Assembly: GCA_963845185.1 (NCBI GenBank)
Contig: CAWJRG010000010.1
Coordinates: forward strand, 1 to 64,000
From: an uncultured bacterium
GTDB taxonomy: Bacteria; Oederibacteriota; PGYV01; CAWJRG01
Length of the DNA stretch: 64,000 nt
Reading direction: 5' to 3'
Positions within the stretch are counted from its first letter, which is position 1; the number at the start of each line of letters is the position of its first letter. Positions 45,001 through 51,000 of this stretch are shown in pieces. A program made the position numbers.

Positions 45001-48000
45001 CATAGCCGATAAAACAAGTATGATTGCATAGCTTAAATAGTTGAGGTTATTTAAAGAAAATACATATTGCGCAGCAGATATAGAAGCTAGTGTTATGACA
45101 AATCCTATGATATAAAATAAATCTCTTTTTTCAATCTTTAGGTCATTCTCTATATAAAAAAATAAAGGCAACAGTATAAGATAGATTAAAAAATCATTGT
45201 AATTAACACGCTCTTTAAAAAATATTATGGCAGTCACAATTATGATAATAGATATATAAAAAGCCAAAAAATATTTTTTACTAATTTTTAGCATCATTTA
45301 CCTCTTATTTTTTAAAAAAGGACTGTCTGCTCAGTCTGTGGCAACCCTTTTGCGAAGCCATTGTCCTGTATAAATTTTGAAACATTTTTATTTATTTTTG
45401 TCCTTTTAACCATATCTTCCATTGAGGAAAACTTGGCTTTGCATCTTTCTTTTATAACAGCATCAGCAACTTTTAATCCAAGCTCCGGTATTATGGTTAA
45501 TGGCATTAAGATTTTACCTTCTTTTACCTTAAATATGTTCGCTTCTGATTCATATATATCTATATTTGACAATTCACCGCCCCTTTCTTTCATTTCCATC
45601 ACTACTTCCATTACTTCAAGAGCGGCAGCTTCTTTTGGTTCAAGATTTTTTTTCATTTTAAGTTCTTTAATTGAAATATACAATTTGTCTATGTCGCTGA
45701 AAGCAAATTCATATTTAAAATCCGTCACATTCCTGTTAAAAAAATCCGCATAGAAATAAAGAGGGTGGTACATTTTAAAATATGCTATTTTAAAAGACAG
45801 TATCGCATAAGCTACAGCATGCGCTTTTGGAAACATATATTTTATTTTTTCACATGATTCTATATACCATTCCGGCACTTTGTTTTTCCTCATTTCGTCC
45901 TTTTCCTCCGCAGATAACCCTTTGCCTCTTCTTACTTTCTCCATTATATTAAAGGCTTTTTCTTTCGATAGACATTTATTGATCAAAAAATTCATTATAT
46001 CGTCCCTTACCGATATGACCTCTTTAAGAGTTGCTTTCTTTGCCTTTATCAATTCTTCGGCGTTGTTTCTCCACACATCCGTACCGTGGGATAGACCTGC
46101 TATGTATATAAGTTCGCTGAAAGTTTTTGGTTTTGTCGCCGCAAGCATTCCTCTTACGAATTTTGTACCATATTCAGGTATGCCGAGTGTCCCCACCGGA
46201 TAATCATATTTCTTTTCGTTTACCCCAAGAACTTTAATGTCACTAAAAAGCTTCATGGTTTTTTTATCATCCAGAGGAATATCTTCAACATTGATTTTTA
46301 ATACTTCACATAATCTTTTTAAACTTGTTGGACCTTTATGCCCAAGTGCATCAATTTTCACAAGAGCATCGTGCATAAAGTCATATTCAAAATGGGTCAC
46401 TATCACATCTTTTTCCTTTGAATCTGCTGGATATTGCACCGGGGTAAAATCATATATTTCCCTATTCTCTGGGATTAGTATTATCCCGCCAGGATGTTGC
46501 CCTGTAGTCCTTTTTATGCCCATGCAACCGCGCGCTAGTCTCTCAATTTCAGCTTTCTTCGCAGTCCTGCCTTTTTTCTCCATATATTTATTAACAAAAT
46601 CCCTTTTAGCTGCTTTCAATTTTATGGTATTGATTGTTCCGCATCTGTATACTTTTCCTTTTCCCCAAAACTCTTCCACAAAATCGTGAATTCTGTCCTG
46701 GTATTCGTCTGAAAAATTAAGGTCTATATCCGGTATTTTATCACCCTTAAACCCCAGGAATGTTTCAAATGGTATGTTAAAACCTTCCTTGCTCATTTTT
46801 TCTCCGCATATGGGACAATTTTTATCTTTCAAATCAACACCTATAAAGCCCTCCTGTGTCAACTCAAAATGTTTGCATTGCTTGCATATGTAATGTGGTT
46901 CCAGCGGGTTTACCTCGGAAATACCGCATAAAAATGCCACCAGTGACGAGCCGACCGACCCCCGAGACCCGACTATATACCCATCCTGTAGTGATTTATC
47001 CACCATTTTTTTTGCGATCAGATAAAGCACGGAAAAATTATGTTTGATAATAGCGTCCAGCTCCCTTTTTATCCTCTCTTCAACCTGATCCGGAATTTTT
47101 TGTCCGTATATCTTCCGCGCATTCTCCCATGTTATTCCTACAATCTGGTCATCCGAATCCGCGATATAGGGAGGCGCAAATTCTTCAGGTATGGGATTTA
47201 TCCCCGCATCAATCATTTTCTCTATTCGTTCGGGATTCTTAATCACGACTTCGTAAGAATTGTCTTCGCCCAGATATTTGAATTCCTCGAGCATTTCGTT
47301 GGTAGTCCTTAAATAAAGATTTGCGCTTTCTTGGCCTTCTATCTCGTCAAACCCTTGCGATAAAAGCAATACTTCCCTGTAGATTTTATGTTCTTCCGAC
47401 AGGTAATGTACATCTCCTGTAGCTACAACAGGCTTGTTATATTTTTTCCCGTATTCAAATATTTTTATGTTTATTGCTTTTATCCCCTCAGTTGATTCAA
47501 CTTTCCCTTCTCTTACAAGGAATTTATTATTATCAATAGGTTGGATCTCAAGATAATCGTAAAAATCTATTATCTCCCTTATTTTCTCTTCCCCCTTATT
47601 ATTTAATATAGCCTGGTACAATTCCCCGAGGTAACAGGCGGTTCCAAGTATCAAACCATCCCTGTGTTTTATGAGTTCAAATCTCGGTATGCGCGGTTTT
47701 TTATAAAAGTAATTCAAGTGTGCAAGAGATACGAGCTTATATAAATTCTTCAAGCCTTGTTTATTTTTTACAAGTAAAATAATATGGTTTGGTTTGTTTG
47801 TCTTGTCCGCTCTTATGTCGTCTACAATATAGCCCTCAAGCCCCAAAATTAGTTTTATTCCTTGTTTTTGTGCAATCTTATACGCTTGCGGATAAACATG
47901 AACAACACCATGGTCGGTAATTGCGGCTGCTTTATGCCCCCACCGCGCCGCGGTTTTAATATAATCTTCCACATCCATTACCGCATCCATAGCGCTCATT

Positions 48001-51000
48001 TTCGTATGTGCATGAAGTTCTATCCTTTTCACCTGTGAAATATCTTGTTTTTGTTCCTTTGTTATCTTTTGTATTTGTCTTAATCTGCCGGTTATTTCTT
48101 CTTCTCTTTCGTCATATTTGACTTCAACAACGGCGCGTGCATATGAAATATTTTTAATTTCGTTTATAAGCGCGTCGTCTTCGTCCAAAAAAGTAAAACA
48201 TTTTAGTGTGTCTATTTCATTAGTGATATACAATGTCATAATCACATAGCTGTTTCCGCCCGAACCTTCCTTAGTTACTTTCCTTTTATATTCCTCGTCA
48301 AGAAAAACCCTGCCCTCAATAACATATTTACCCTGCTCTATTATATTTTCTATCGGAGTCACATTTTCTTCTTTAATATTCGGCTTTAATATTTTACTTT
48401 CTTGGTTTGTTTTAATTGAAACTATTTTTGTCTGACTCGGTCGCAAATAAGAATAATTAATTTCCATGGCTTCTTTTAATACTTTGATATCCGGATCGAA
48501 TTTAAAAAAAGCCCTTATTTTTTTGAATATTTCTTTTGATATTTTCTCATCTAAAAGATTTTTGTAAATAAAATCGTTATTGCATGCTATAAACACTGTA
48601 TTTTCATACGCTTTTACTTTGGTATTTTCAAGCCATATTTTAGCATTCGTATCTTCATTTAAAAAAAGGCCCCAGTAATTATTTATCAATTTTTCCCGTG
48701 GTATATCGTCGGAAAATTCTGTAGTTATTTTTGTTTGTTTGCCAGTTTCAATGTCCAAATAATTTCTTAATTTGTCCAAAATTTCGGTTGAAATAATATC
48801 TTTCAAAACTACATTTACTGTGATTTTATCTTCGGCTTCAGAAAACTCGACAGTCTTTATTTCAATTGTCTCTGCTGAATCATCCAGTCCGATTTCATGT
48901 ATGATATTCTTGATAATTTCCCGTGTTTTATCTTTTCCAATATTTAAGATATATGTCATTTGCCTTCCTTGTGATACTTTATGTTAACTCTGTATATTTT
49001 TTACTTGTTAAAAAGATTTTGTAGTTTTTTTACAGCAGAATTTTTTCCCTGGCTTTCTATTTGTTTATTTATGGCGGATTCAGCGTTGGTAATGTCGTTT
49101 TGTGTACCGTTGACTTTACCGTTATCCGCGCTTAGCTGTTTTTGAATATCGCCCTTGTCCCCGTCAACATCTTTCAAAAGGCCTTTACTTTCGTCTTTAA
49201 TCTGGCTTCCTATTTCCTTGCTTATTTTGTCTTTTGCATCCGAAACTTTTTTGCCGTAAATTCTGTTTAAACTGCTTTTTATTCTGTCCGCAATATCGCT
49301 GTCAAAGCTCATGCTGAGTCCTGTGTTCTTCTGCACAACATGAAACCCGATTTTCATTTTATCAATGCCGCTGACAGCCTGGTACACAACATCGCTTGAA
49401 TCCTGCTTGTCAAATTGCACGCCTGACAATAGAATGTTGCCGTTTATTGATATTATCTTTTCCATATTCTTTATTTCAGCGGATGTATCCATATTTGCGT
49501 TTTTTAACTTGATATTGCCGTAATCCACCTTGTCAAGCCCCGCAGTTGAAGCTGGCATTTTTGTTGTACTCATAGTTATTGTATCGTTAATCTCGTCAAT
49601 ATGGTTTATATCCCCTTTCATTATCATTCCCATGCCGGATTTTTCAGCATAAAGGTTAAAAGTTATCGGTCTCCCGATAACAGCCTGTTCTGTTGTAATA
49701 TCGTCGATTTCACCTTTTACAAGATACTGGCTCGCGTCTGCCTTTTCTGTGGAAATTACTACTTTTTTAATCCAGAAAGTCGGGTATGCGCTGCTAACAA
49801 AAACTATATCCCTGCCGTGTATTCTCTTCTTCTCAATAATTTTTTCTTTTTTGCCCTTTTTCTGGCTTTTGGGGATGTATTTGTTTATAAGGTTCAGTAA
49901 ATCCATTATTTTGGTAATCCTGTCGTACCATATGGGGCCTATCAGTGATTTTTCAATGCTTGATGCGTTTAATATCTTTACGTTAAAATTTCCCAAGACA
50001 TTCTGCACGTCCTTTTCTTTTGCCTTTTCTATATCATTTGACAGTCCTTTAGAATAATCGTAAAAATCCTGCGCATCATTTTTTTCAGTTTCCAGGTCCT
50101 TTTTTAAAGATTCCACCTCTGTCTTCATTTTGCCCAGTTCCTGCAGTTTTGCCTGGGCCGCAGGTATATCGCTTGCGCTGTTGACCTTTACTCCTTTGAT
50201 GTCCCCAATTTCCGACTCTAAATTTTTTGTCGTGGCGTCAATGTTGATATTTTTCATGTCAGAAGACGTTTTATCCTTTTTATCCTTTAATTTCTGTTCT
50301 GAATCCTTTATAAGCTTGTAGGATTCCAGGTTTTCCTTCTTTATGTAACTTTTATAGTCTATATTTTTGAGTTTATCTCCAAGCTCATTGCTTTTTGATA
50401 CAGGCATTTTTTGCACATCGGTTTTGGCCTTATTATCAATAGCGTCTTTCATTTTATCAGTCGGTGCATTTTTGTCCTCCTGCTGTTTTTCAATCTTTTG
50501 AACCTTCCCGGGCGGAAGAAATCCTGATATTTTCCTGTCTGTTCCAATGGCAAGGTTTATTACATTTATATTGTCGAAAATAAATTTTCTTTTTAACATA
50601 GGCGTAAAAATATATTTTATTTCTATTTTTTGAGCCTGCCATAAGTTCTTAAATTCATGGTTTTTATCCGCAACTGTCAGATTTTCAATCAAAATCTGAG
50701 ATTTTAAGACTTGTATATCCACCTTCTCAATCTCTACTTTTGACTTGAACATATTTTCTCCCGCGGCCACAAGCCCCATCTTAACAAGCATATTAAGGAA
50801 GAATACGTTAAATACTATTATTAAAGCAAGTGCTATTGCCGTTGCAGCAACGCCGTGTTTTCTTATCATTATTTTTTACCTCTTTTCTCTATAAATTGCC
50901 CTACTGAAAGTATCTGCATAATTTTCAGTTTTTGGAGTTTCTCCTGCCAGTTTTTCCTGTAAAAAACAATGAAACTTCTTGTTCCCATCCAGGCCAAAGG

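What a model noticed while it worked through the whole genome (the two positions that open the first line are those of the whole stretch)
45312..48959. A natural PolC replicase without the DnaQ-type proofreading exonuclease domain, in a genome with no DnaQ-like domain at [...]
g02040 (1215 aa) is a PolC-type DNA polymerase III alpha subunit that aligns end to end with the exonuclease-deleted Geobacillus PolC crystal construct: where firmicute PolC carries a ~200-residue DnaQ-like 3'-5' exonuclease inside the PHP domain, this protein has an uninterrupted PHP domain, and no RNase_T/DnaQ domain exists anywhere in the genome; a DnaE (g01754) is also present. I propose that this diderm lineage replicates with an exonuclease-less PolC plus DnaE and proofreads through the PHP domain(s), and that it preserves (or has reverted to) the PolC form that preceded capture of the DnaQ module. 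That would break the rule that PolC always brings its own DnaQ proofreader and give a na [...]
Evidence so far: NCBIfam NF001688 PolC-type 1325 bits (cut 873) but model cover only 0.58; Pfam PHP 314-467 contiguous, no exonuclease row; best Swiss-Prot hits PolC of Clostridium tetani/Caldanaerobacter, 37-39% identity, subjects 1401-1427 aa versus query 1215. PDB sequence search: 3F2B (G. kaustophilus PolC, 1041-residue chain) E 8e-292, query 197-1215 = chain 4-1030 in one stretch, running straight across the chain's GSGSG stretch; full-length PolC 9QPC (1474 aa) aligns only from query 386 = chain 635. PHP metal-ligand motifs present (ELHAHT..MDAV, ITDHG, GLEG, NHI, ATGDVHY). RNase_T PF00929: 0 matches at E<=0.1 in the 99.4%-complete genome while 11 of 14 control genomes ring; none in pfam.tsv. 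A PolC of [...]
(Added by a program. Inside this text positions count along the whole contig: contig position 1 is position 1 of the stretch shown here. "Call 12" and the like, gene names such as g00115 and contig names such as C1 are that model's own, and its searches are not shown. The text may have been shortened before it was handed on; [...] marks where a part breaks off. The agent that wrote the report below was given it as the finding of a first reader that could run no searches.)

Follow-up and report, generated by a model that had tools for sequence, protein, structure and literature searches.

The report
Exonuclease-less PolC replicase in Goldbacteria-like bacterium
This is an intact PolC-type DNA replication enzyme that naturally lacks the usual built-in proofreading module, a variant first described in 2013, found here in an uncultured non-Firmicute lineage that probably proofreads with the enzyme's older metal-binding PHP domain.

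Summary
The ORF at 45312-48959 (-) is a genuine 1215-aa PolC (NF001688 1325 bits). Its PHP domain is not interrupted by the ~200-residue DnaQ-like exonuclease.

The form is not new. Timinskas et al. (NAR 2014, PMC3919608, passages read) reported that 6% of PolCs lack the Exo insertion, always in genomes that also have DnaE1. This scan had already noted it on other genomes, including FCPU426.

New here:
- The host is a diderm Goldbacteria-like lineage, and 79 of 99 genomes of its phylum carry only Exo-less PolC.
- No RNase_T/DnaQ gene was found in this 99.4%-complete genome, and the same holds for 31 of those 79.
- A decayed MrfB-like DEDD-fold pseudogene does exist, so "no DnaQ-like domain at all" is too strong.

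PolC and DnaE1 both keep the full nine-residue PHP metal motif, so PHP proofreading is the likeliest mechanism. It is untested.

DnaE-rooted trees place the Goldbacteria PolC clade among the deepest PolC branches. Gain versus loss stays unresolved, and the Exo state changes at least 8-11 times on the trees.

Verdict: a new member of a known kind.

The parts
45312..48959 (-). polC gene, 1215 codons plus stop: PolC-type DNA polymerase III alpha subunit without the DnaQ-like Exo insertion
   Evidence: ORF. NF001688 1325 bits and TIGR01405 1232 bits, both above cut-off. 3F2B aligns in one stretch at E 8e-292.
48021..48959 (-). Residues 1-313: poorly conserved N-terminal region plus the OB-domain region that lies before the PHP domain, as in PolC
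   Evidence: The alignment to the 3F2B chain starts at query residue 197 = chain residue 4. There is a weak DNA_pol3_a_NI match at residues 27-80, E 0.17.
47160..48020 (-). Residues 314-600: uninterrupted PHP domain with metal ligands H316, H318, D325, H350, E375, H392, C442, D516 and H518 (motif HHDHEHCDH)
   Evidence: Pfam PHP 314-467. PF02811 at C10:47559-48020. Motif positions. Motif kept in 115 of 115 full-length homologues. Model pLDDT 91.8, TM 0.87 to 3F2B.
47787..47828 (-). Residues 378-391: the 14-residue loop at the exact site where canonical PolC carries the ~200-residue exonuclease
   Evidence: In the same alignment columns (query residues 372-396), hits with the Exo insertion hold 220-227 residues and Exo-less hits hold 21-42. 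DnaE rows hold 8-47 residues at this site. In the model the loop joins strands 65-75 and 87-93.
45891..47138 (-). Residues 608-1023: polymerase core (palm, thumb, fingers) with catalytic D744, D746 and D870, and the four-cysteine motif C692, C695, C715, C718
   Evidence: PF07733 and PF17657. The three aspartates are invariant in 115 of 115 homologues, and the cysteine motifs were located.
45375..45575 (-). Residues 1129-1195: tandem helix-hairpin-helix DNA-binding module
   Evidence: PF14579 HHH_6, E 8.5e-10.
45315..45329 (-). Residues 1211-1215, QTVLF: C-terminal motif of the beta-clamp-binding type (QxxLF)
   Evidence: Position. Q-x-x-[LM]-F ends 27 of 27 Goldbacteria-like homologues, 26 with QxxLF and one with QTVMF. 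Its reading as a clamp-binding motif is from Timinskas et al. and was not tested here.

Best explanation
The gene encodes a functional PolC-type replicative polymerase of the naturally Exo-less subclass, in a diderm Goldbacteria-like bacterium. GTDB places the organism in the same phylum as genomes that NCBI labels FCPU426 and Firestonebacteria.

Shown:
- The protein has every PolC part except the DnaQ-like exonuclease: the OB region before PHP, a complete PHP domain, the polymerase core with its three catalytic aspartates and four-cysteine motif, HhH, and a C-terminal QxxLF motif.
- The genome also encodes a full-length DnaE1 with a complete PHP motif. It encodes PolX, Pol I (no PF01612 3'-5' exonuclease domain detected) and MutS.
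- No intact DEDD-type exonuclease was found.

Inferred:
- Replication uses PolC plus DnaE1, as in Clostridia-type systems.
- Mismatched 3' ends are removed by the metal-dependent PHP exonuclease site of one or both polymerases, backed up by mismatch repair.
- The Exo-less state is fixed across the lineage and is not a defect of this one genome.
- It is most simply explained by loss of the insertion, an event that has happened many times in PolC history. Retention of a pre-insertion form cannot be excluded.
For: Identity and integrity.

Not an artefact:
- 84 of the 115 hits of at least 1150 aa (out of 120 listed) lack the insert.
- 23 of 137 50%-identity representatives of at least 1100 aa lack it.
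- 79 of 99 genomes of the phylum have a PolC-level match. All whole reading frames are 1205-1362 aa, and no match is split by more than ~28 codons.

Partner polymerase: DnaE1 matches NF005298 at 1360 bits (cut-off 1260), end to end, and has an HHDHEHCDH-type PHP motif.

No DEDDh exonuclease found. 31 of the 79 PolC-bearing genomes also lack any PF00929 match, among them the 100%-complete G019, G032 and G033.

PHP as a fidelity site:
- The motif is invariant in 115 of 115 homologues.
- PMC12926913 (passages read) states that most DnaE1-only bacteria have a single candidate proofreader, either PHP or DnaQ.
- Engineered delta-Exo PolC is a fast polymerase, kpol 330 per second (PMC3656037).

Loss is frequent: the trees need 15-19 changes of Exo state, of which 8-13 are forced by branches with at least 95% support. 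One example is Exo-less Heliorestis inside a 97% supported clade of four Exo+ rows (Desulfotomaculum, Desulfohalotomaculum, Phosphitispora, Carboxydocella).
Against: - No biochemical test exists for PHP exonuclease activity in any PolC of this clade.
- The PHP motif is just as complete in the 31 Exo+ PolCs examined. Its conservation is therefore not a compensation specific to Exo-less forms.
- The C669Y effect in C. thermocellum could be structural rather than catalytic, as its authors' wording allows.
- 15 of the 23 other genomes of the same order encode a DEDDh exonuclease-BRCT protein resembling NF004844 'Pol III epsilon' (243-275 bits, below the 373 cut-off). A trans-acting exonuclease may thus matter in the group. 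Its absence here could reflect the 0.6% of the genome not assembled.
- For the loss reading: in three DnaE-rooted IQ-TREE trees the Goldbacteria clade is never nested in a supported Exo+ clade. The best-likelihood tree puts it before all Exo+ PolCs.
Confidence: 0.7

Rival explanations
1. Relic reading. The Goldbacteria-type PolC descends from a PolC that never acquired the DnaQ module. The exonuclease was inserted once, later, on the stem leading to Firmicute, Thermotogota and other PolCs.
For: - In DnaE-rooted IQ-TREE (PMSF) trees the Goldbacteria clade (100% support) falls outside a 95-96% supported clade holding all other named PolCs. That clade includes Kosmotoga, Halanaerobiales, Bacilli, Clostridia and FCPU426/Firestonebacteria.
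- The tree constrained to put all 26 Exo+ rows in one clade, excluding the Goldbacteria clade and DnaE, had the best likelihood of the six compared (lnL -78468.5, p-AU 0.82).
- DnaE rows carry a similarly short loop at the insertion site.
Against: - The outgroup branch is very long, 1.45-2.0 changes per column on each side of the root.
- The other basal rows are long-branch orphans (end branches 0.75-1.11), the pattern expected from long-branch attraction.
- One of them, P0164, labelled a Hydrogenedentota MAG, has the Exo insertion. A tree with it as the earliest PolC branch is not rejected (p-AU 0.22).
- Losses are demonstrably frequent, so two or three more cost little.
- Only fast tree searches finished.
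- Fusobacteriota and Negativicutes were not sampled by name.
Confidence: 0.25
2. Division-of-labour reading. DnaE1, with its own PHP proofreader, is the main replicase, and the Exo-less PolC plays an auxiliary or strand-specific role. The loss of its exonuclease would then matter little. This is compatible with the best explanation.
For: - DnaE1 here is full length, matches its equivalog model above cut-off, has the complete PHP motif and an internal QENLF motif.
- DnaE1 was found in 40 of 41 sampled genomes of the phylum. PolC was not found in 20 of 99, including six whole families.
- Timinskas et al. raise this idea because all Exo-less PolCs occur with DnaE1.
Against: - PolC is kept intact, with invariant catalytic and clamp-type motifs, across 79 genomes of the phylum, which argues for an important role.
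- There are no expression or genetic data.
Confidence: 0.3
3. Hidden-proofreader reading. Editing is done in trans by an exonuclease that the searches missed. It could be a very divergent or non-DEDD enzyme, or a gene in the unassembled part of the genome.
For: - The genome is in 11 contigs and 99.38% complete, not closed.
- Relatives in the same order often have an Exo-BRCT protein.
- PMC12926913 notes lineages that 'may possibly use noncanonical proofreaders'.
Against: - Five family models and a custom Exo HMM over all six frames found nothing intact.
- The same absence recurs in 31 of 79 PolC-bearing genomes of the phylum, including three rated 100% complete.
Confidence: 0.1
4. Artefact or pseudogene reading. 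The short PolC results from a mis-assembly or from a decaying gene.
For: Nothing positive. At least one other locus in the genome (C5:25786-29040) does carry multiple frame changes.
Against: - The frame is uninterrupted for 1215 codons.
- All catalytic, metal-binding and clamp-type motifs are conserved.
- Homologues of the same length occur on many independent contigs and genomes.
Confidence: 0.01

Closest known systems
Naturally Exo-less PolC variants of Clostridia and Negativicutes (Timinskas, Balvociute, Timinskas & Venclovas, NAR 2014; PMC3919608)
   Same: Same architecture: PolC with an uninterrupted PHP domain. It co-occurs with DnaE1 rather than DnaE3, and the PHP metal site is complete.
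   Different: That survey stated that PolC is confined to Firmicutes, Fusobacteria, Tenericutes and Thermotogae, and found Exo-less forms only in Clostridia and Negativicutes plus one extra Thermotogae copy. Here the host is a Goldbacteria-like diderm candidate lineage. Every PolC found in its phylum is Exo-less, and this genome has no RNase_T-family gene at all.
Engineered G. kaustophilus PolC-deltaN-deltaExo (PDB 3F2B/3F2C/3F2D) and S. aureus PolC-deltaN-deltaExo
   Same: The query aligns residue for residue across the artificial linker that replaces the exonuclease. The PHP model has TM 0.87 and 46% identity to 3F2B. The engineered form is an active polymerase.
   Different: Those are laboratory deletions of Exo+ enzymes that also lack the N-terminal domain. 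This is a natural full-length protein with its own 14-residue loop.
PHP-proofreading DnaE1 replicases (M. tuberculosis DnaE1, PMC5636811, abstract seen in the listing; Thermus Pol III alpha, as cited)
   Same: The same nine-residue PHP metal motif. The PHP-domain model matches 7PU7, 5LEW, 2HPI and 3E0D at TM 0.72-0.79. These systems replicate with the PHP exonuclease in place of a DEDD one.
   Different: Those are DnaE1-only systems, and in them the activity has been measured. Here two C-family polymerases coexist and nothing has been measured.
Canonical PolC with the DnaQ-like Exo inserted in PHP (for example PDB 9QPC, 1474 aa; NF001688)
   Same: 37-54% identity over the shared domains, same domain order and same catalytic residues.
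   Different: About 200 residues are missing: chain residues 433-634 of 9QPC have no counterpart.

Membership tests
PolC-type DNA polymerase III alpha (NF001688 / TIGR01405) | Whole-protein score above the curated equivalog cut-off | tested here: met
   NF001688 1325.1 bits vs 873; TIGR01405 1231.9 vs 1043.45. DnaE models are all far below their cut-offs.
PolC-type DNA polymerase III alpha (NF001688 / TIGR01405) | PolC domain order: OB domain N-terminal to PHP, then the Pol3 core, then HhH at the C-terminus | tested here: met
   One-stretch alignment of query 197-1215 to 3F2B chain 4-1030. Pfam order is PHP, Pol3 alpha, finger, HHH_6. That the chain starts with the OB domain is taken from PMC3656037.
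PolC-type DNA polymerase III alpha (NF001688 / TIGR01405) | DnaQ-like 3'-5' exonuclease inserted in the PHP domain (called a hallmark by Timinskas et al.) | tested here: not met
   No RNase_T row. A 14-residue loop stands in place of a ~205-220-residue insert. 9QPC residues 433-634 are unmatched. The feature is known to be missing in 6% of accepted PolCs.
PolC-type DNA polymerase III alpha (NF001688 / TIGR01405) | Three catalytic aspartates of the palm and the four-cysteine motif | tested here: met
   D744, D746 and D870 are invariant in 115 of 115 homologues. The CKQC and CPIC motifs are present and align to the cysteines of 3F2B.
Exo-less PolC subclass (Timinskas et al. 2014) | PolC lacking the Exo insertion, in a genome that pairs it with DnaE1 and not DnaE3 | tested here: met
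   DnaE scores 1360 bits vs 1260 on NF005298 and 1304 vs 1002 on NF004226, end to end. The B. subtilis-type model NF005377 scores 991 vs 1806.
Exo-less PolC subclass (Timinskas et al. 2014) | Host in Clostridia or Negativicutes | tested here: not met
   PolCs of the same GTDB order and phylum carry NCBI labels Candidatus Goldbacteria, candidate division FCPU426 and Candidatus Firestonebacteria. BamA and LpxC are present.
Active PHP exonuclease site, as defined in PMC12926913 (motif HHDHEH[C/H]DH) | All nine metal-ligand positions conserved | tested here: met
   H316, H318, D325, H350, E375, H392, C442, D516, H518. The DnaE1 motif is also complete.
Active PHP exonuclease site, as defined in PMC12926913 (motif HHDHEH[C/H]DH) | Measured 3'-5' exonuclease activity | not testable with these tools
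   Needs purified protein.
DnaQ / Pol III epsilon (TIGR00573, PF00929) anywhere in the genome | A DEDDh exonuclease gene | tested here: not met
   The only DEDD-fold gene found is a frame-shifted PF13482 MrfB-like remnant.

The most novel reading that the evidence does not exclude
The Goldbacteria-type PolC is a surviving pre-insertion form of PolC. On this reading the PolC lineage first existed with PHP-only proofreading. The DnaQ module was captured once, later, on the stem of the Firmicute/Thermotogota PolCs. This diderm lineage still runs a two-polymerase replisome (PolC + DnaE1) with no intact DEDD exonuclease found in the cell.
Probability: 0.25. Interest if true: 0.6.

Novelty: new member of a known kind. 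Interest (0 to 1): 0.3.

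Why it matters
It extends the known Exo-less PolC class to a candidate diderm phylum outside the Firmicutes, where it is the only PolC form found.

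It also offers natural test cases for a question the literature leaves open: how PolC + DnaE1 replisomes work, and whether the PHP domain of PolC is a real proofreader. These genomes lack any intact DEDD-type exonuclease that the searches could find.

The deep placement of this clade in PolC trees makes it a useful taxon for dating the capture of the DnaQ module.

It changes no current concept. PHP-only proofreading is already considered widespread.

Tried and rejected
- Artefact or pseudogene: rejected.
- Exonuclease split off as a separate gene: not found with PF00929, TIGR00573, PF16473, PF01612 or a custom HMM of 31 PolC Exo inserts over all six frames.
- Firmicute-type gene neighbourhood: not present. 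The neighbours are a PMT-like glycosyltransferase, an unknown 622-aa protein, DUF2062, a nucleotidyl transferase and PTS genes.
- RNase_T hits in relatives as replicative DnaQ: mostly not. The sampled family f22 hit is oligoribonuclease (NF003765, 270 bits). The sampled same-order hits are Exo-BRCT proteins below the NF004844 cut-off. Only the sampled PolC-less families f12 and f13 have proteins above the TIGR00573 cut-off. Six of the 67 matches listed were examined.
- The search for related loci on genome contigs returned 25 loci, all PolC-like matches from Firmicute or Mycoplasmatota records; the six used in the trees all carry the Exo insertion. They served only as tree rows.
- Rfam on the window: 0 matches.
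- FastTree placed P0224 and P0258 (Exo+) at the PolC base. IQ-TREE PMSF moved them inside the main clade, so that placement was dropped as long-branch attraction.
- AU values for constraint trees c1 and c4 are not usable. The c5 tree satisfies c1 with a likelihood 109 units better, so the fast searches were poor.
- The treekit AU test did not finish after 861 s. Full IQ-TREE searches timed out.
- The listing of cluster members could not be run because the database was off.
- No paper holding both 'Goldbacteria' and 'PolC' was found in the searched library.

Full report
**Observation**

The minus-strand ORF 45312-48959 is open for 1215 codons.
- It exceeds the curated cut-offs of both NCBIfam PolC equivalogs: NF001688 1325.1 bits vs 873, and TIGR01405 1231.9 vs 1043. 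Each model is matched in two stretches, the better one covering query 386-1215.
- Pfam lists PHP (314-467), DNA_pol3_alpha, the finger domain and HHH_6, and no exonuclease family.
- Against PDB sequences the query runs in a single stretch (197-1215 = chain 4-1030, E 8e-292) along 3F2B, straight over that chain's 'lgsgsgp' linker.
- The 1474-aa full-length PolC 9QPC aligns in two stretches, 197-382 = 250-432 and 386-1215 = 635-1471. About 200 chain residues have no partner.
- PMC3656037 (passages read) confirms that 3F2B is the engineered Gka-PolC-deltaN-deltaExo construct. It also shows that the equivalent S. aureus construct is a fast polymerase.
- An AlphaFold model of residues 305-600, built on a 39-row alignment (mean pLDDT 91.8, pTM 0.90), matches 3F2B in 298 alignment columns (TM 0.87, 46% identity) and Thermus DnaE in 292. 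Full-length PolC entries 9QRN and 9QPC need 494 columns and 9QRL 461.

The PHP domain is therefore whole. The exonuclease site is a 14-residue loop (residues 378-391) joining two strands.

**Function-bearing residues**

- All nine PHP metal ligands are present: H316, H318, D325, H350, E375, H392, C442, D516 and H518. This is the HHDHEH[C/H]DH motif that PMC12926913 uses to call a PHP site 'active'.
- The motif is invariant in 115 of 115 homologues of at least 1150 aa: 27 Goldbacteria-like, 57 other Exo-less and 31 Exo+. Five shorter hits were left out.
- The three palm aspartates (D744, D746, D870) are also invariant in 115 of 115.
- A C-terminal Q-x-x-[LM]-F ends 27 of 27 Goldbacteria-like proteins.

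**The rest of the genome**

The assembly is 3.50 Mb in 11 contigs and 99.38% complete.

Searches for a DEDD-type exonuclease:
- PF00929 gives only a 12-bit match at E 0.459.
- TIGR00573, PF01612 and PF16473 give nothing at E <= 1.
- An HMM built from 31 PolC Exo inserts, run with filters off over 38,586 six-frame ORFs of at least 40 aa, gives its best match at E 0.39.

- The 256-aa ORF there also touches the PolB-exonuclease families.
- It is followed by a DEAD/DEAH-type helicase gene. The C5:25786-29040 locus is read in several different frames.
- I read this as a decayed MrfB/MrfA (YprB/YprA)-like repair pair. That name is recalled and comes from no call.

Other replication and repair genes:
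- Pol I (866 aa) has the 5'-3' nuclease and polymerase domains and only a sub-threshold vestigial exonuclease-like stretch (PF22619, E 1.7e-5).
- A full-length DnaE1 lies at C9:723508-726948. It scores NF005298 1360 bits vs 1260, matched end to end, has a complete PHP motif and an internal QENLF.
- PolX (NF006375, 522.6 bits vs 426) and MutS are present.
- Omp85/BamA and LpxC are present, so the diderm label holds.

**Distribution**

Two of the three database-wide searches bear on how common the form is.
- Of the 120 best hits in the 5.8-billion-protein search, 115 are at least 1150 aa. Of these, 84 have a 21-42-residue linker at the site and 31 have a 220-227-residue insert.
- Named Exo-less examples include a Candidatus Goldbacteria MAG, Syntrophomonadaceae, Thermosyntropha, Heliorestis convoluta and Bacillota LX-D, and Thermanaeromonas toyohensis and a Limnochordia MAG.
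- Among the 150 best 50%-identity representatives, 137 are at least 1100 aa and 23 of those lack the insert.

In the 99 genomes of the window's GTDB phylum:
- 83 match at E <= 1e-50. Four of these (family f12, 29% identity) are DnaE-level; for G006 the match sits at the place where one search finds DnaE. That leaves 79 genomes with PolC.
- Every complete reading frame is 1205-1362 aa. The five matches reported in two pieces are separated by only 78-84 bases.
- PolC of G084 (same order) is identical to the protein NCBI labels Candidatus Goldbacteria. PolC of G032 (same phylum) matches at 100% identity the protein labelled candidate division FCPU426, with Firestonebacteria-labelled relatives.

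PF00929 in the same 99 genomes:
- 60 have a match.
- Among the 79 PolC-bearing genomes, 31 have none: the window's own genome, 8 of 23 in the same order, families f16 0 of 4, f17 0 of 11, f19 0 of 2, f20 0 of 2, one genome of f18 and two of f22.
- These include G019, G032 and G033, rated 100% complete.

I examined six of the 67 matches listed in that call:
- Family f22: oligoribonuclease (NF003765, 270.6 bits).
- Same-order genomes: 317-323-aa stop-to-stop frames encoding DEDDh exonuclease plus BRCT proteins that align end to end with NF004844 'Pol III epsilon' but stay below its cut-off (243-275 vs 373).
- Family f18: the exonuclease part alone.
- PolC-less families f12 and f13: stand-alone DnaQ-type proteins above the TIGR00573 cut-off (104-116 vs 71.5).

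**Literature**

- Timinskas et al. [quoted passage not shown] These were found in Clostridia and Negativicutes plus one extra Thermotogae copy, always in PolC + DnaE1 genomes.
- The same paper states that PolC is confined to Firmicutes, Fusobacteria, Tenericutes and Thermotogae, and that PolC and DnaE1 PHP sites are highly conserved.
- PMC12926913 (NAR 2026; passages read) maps PHP and DnaQ proofreaders over more than 3000 complete genomes. It finds that most DnaE1-only bacteria have a single candidate proofreader, PHP or DnaQ.
[quoted passage not shown] The authors identify C669 as one of the nine conserved PHP metal ligands; I equate it with C442 here by position in the motif.
- No paper in the searched library holds both 'Goldbacteria' and 'PolC'.
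- This scan had already noted Exo-less PolC on other genomes, including FCPU426 and Muiribacteriota.

**Gain or loss**

I aligned PolC rows with DnaE outgroups. I kept 874 columns from the start of PHP to the HhH region and removed the insert columns.

| Analysis | Rows | Changes of Exo state needed | Forced by branches with >=95% support |
|---|---|---|---|
| FastTree | 181 | 18-19 | 13 |
| IQ-TREE LG+C20+F+G4 (PMSF), quick | 76 | 17-18 | 11 |
| Same, with four Firmicute DnaE rows added to the outgroup | 64 | 16-17 | 11 |
| Same, with named taxa | 67 | 15-16 | 8 |

- Many Exo-less PolCs sit next to Exo+ relatives inside Firmicute clades. These are most simply read as losses.
- The Goldbacteria clade behaves differently. 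It has 100% support and lies outside a 95-96% supported clade of 47-49 other rows. That clade contains Kosmotoga, three Halanaerobiales, Bacilli, Clostridia, a Mycoplasmatota row and the FCPU426/Firestonebacteria PolCs.
- It shares the base of the PolC tree with three orphans: P0125 and P0126 (Exo-less) and P0164 (Exo+, labelled a Hydrogenedentota MAG).

AU test on fast LG+F+G4 trees:
- Best tree: all 26 Exo+ rows form one clade excluding the Goldbacteria clade and DnaE (lnL -78468.5, p-AU 0.82).
- P0164 as the earliest PolC branch: p 0.22, not rejected.
- Goldbacteria and FCPU426 PolCs as one clade: p 0.23, not rejected.
- Two other constraint trees came from poor fast searches and say nothing.

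Cautions:
- The outgroup branch is 1.45-2.0 changes per column on each side of the root.
- The three orphans beside the Goldbacteria clade at the base are long branches.
- Only short searches finished.
- Rows were picked by hand. From the 150 representatives I dropped 13 shorter than 1100 aa, and for the IQ-TREE sets I kept 55-68 PolC rows.

I therefore treat the direction as open, with loss as the default. I give the relic reading about one chance in four.

**Mechanism**

Shown: an intact PolC lacking the exonuclease, an intact DnaE1, complete PHP metal sites in both, and no intact DEDD exonuclease found.

Inferred:
- Replication is by PolC + DnaE1.
- Editing is by the PHP site of one or both polymerases, supported by mismatch repair.

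Which polymerase does the bulk of synthesis cannot be told from sequence.

**Verdict**

The new elements are the host phylum, the phylum-wide fixation, the repeated total absence of RNase_T-family genes, and the deep position of this clade in PolC trees.

Noticed in passing
G000 contig C5:25786-29040 (outside the window; loci L030, L031): A MrfB/YprB-like PF13482 exonuclease gene followed by a DEAD/DEAH helicase gene. The locus is read in several different frames, so it is apparently a decayed repair gene pair. It is the only DEDD-fold exonuclease gene found in the genome.
   Followed up: partly
L113 1536-2504 (+), L114 1076-2026 (-), L115 1448-2452 (+): genomes G092, G087 and G094 of the same order: Stop-to-stop frames of 317-335 aa that encode a DEDDh exonuclease fused to a BRCT domain. 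Two were scanned; they align end to end with NF004844 ('Pol III epsilon') but score below its cut-off. A PF00929 match is present in 15 of 23 same-order genomes and absent from the window's genome. This protein is a candidate trans-acting partner of Exo-less PolC or DnaE1.
   Followed up: partly
L063 1456-2031 (-), L065 1390-2112 (-): genomes G011 and G006, families f13 and f12 of the same phylum: The families of this phylum in which no PolC was found carry stand-alone DnaQ-type exonucleases. Their best or near-best NCBIfam match is the Exo segment of the PolC model (NF001688 positions 413-611, 166-193 bits).
   Followed up: partly
window 1-4000 and 28001-32000: G+C is 0.60 and 0.53 in the first 4 kb, against 0.30-0.50 in the rest of the window. 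GC skew drops to -0.41 and -0.37 at 28-32 kb. The polC region itself is at 0.30-0.39 G+C. Rfam found no RNA family in the window.
   Followed up: no
window 52378-58212 (-): Upstream of polC on the same (minus) strand lie PTS enzyme I, a complete mannose-type PTS (IIA, IIB, IIC, IID) and a CofD-family gene. The polC neighbourhood is unlike the usual Firmicute polC context.
   Followed up: partly
protein P0164 (not in the window): An orphan Exo+ PolC on a 16-kb contig labelled Candidatus Hydrogenedentota. It is only 38-44% identical to any other PolC listed and sits at the base of DnaE-rooted PolC trees. It may be a mis-binned contig or another deep PolC lineage.
   Followed up: partly
G000 contig C5:611365-613092 (locus L122 1282-3009, -): A 575-aa PolX with a C-terminal PHP 3'-5' exonuclease domain (NF006375, 522.6 bits). 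With it the genome holds seven PF02811 (PHP) matches: PolC, DnaE1, PolX and four further matches (one a 124-aa fragment).
   Followed up: partly
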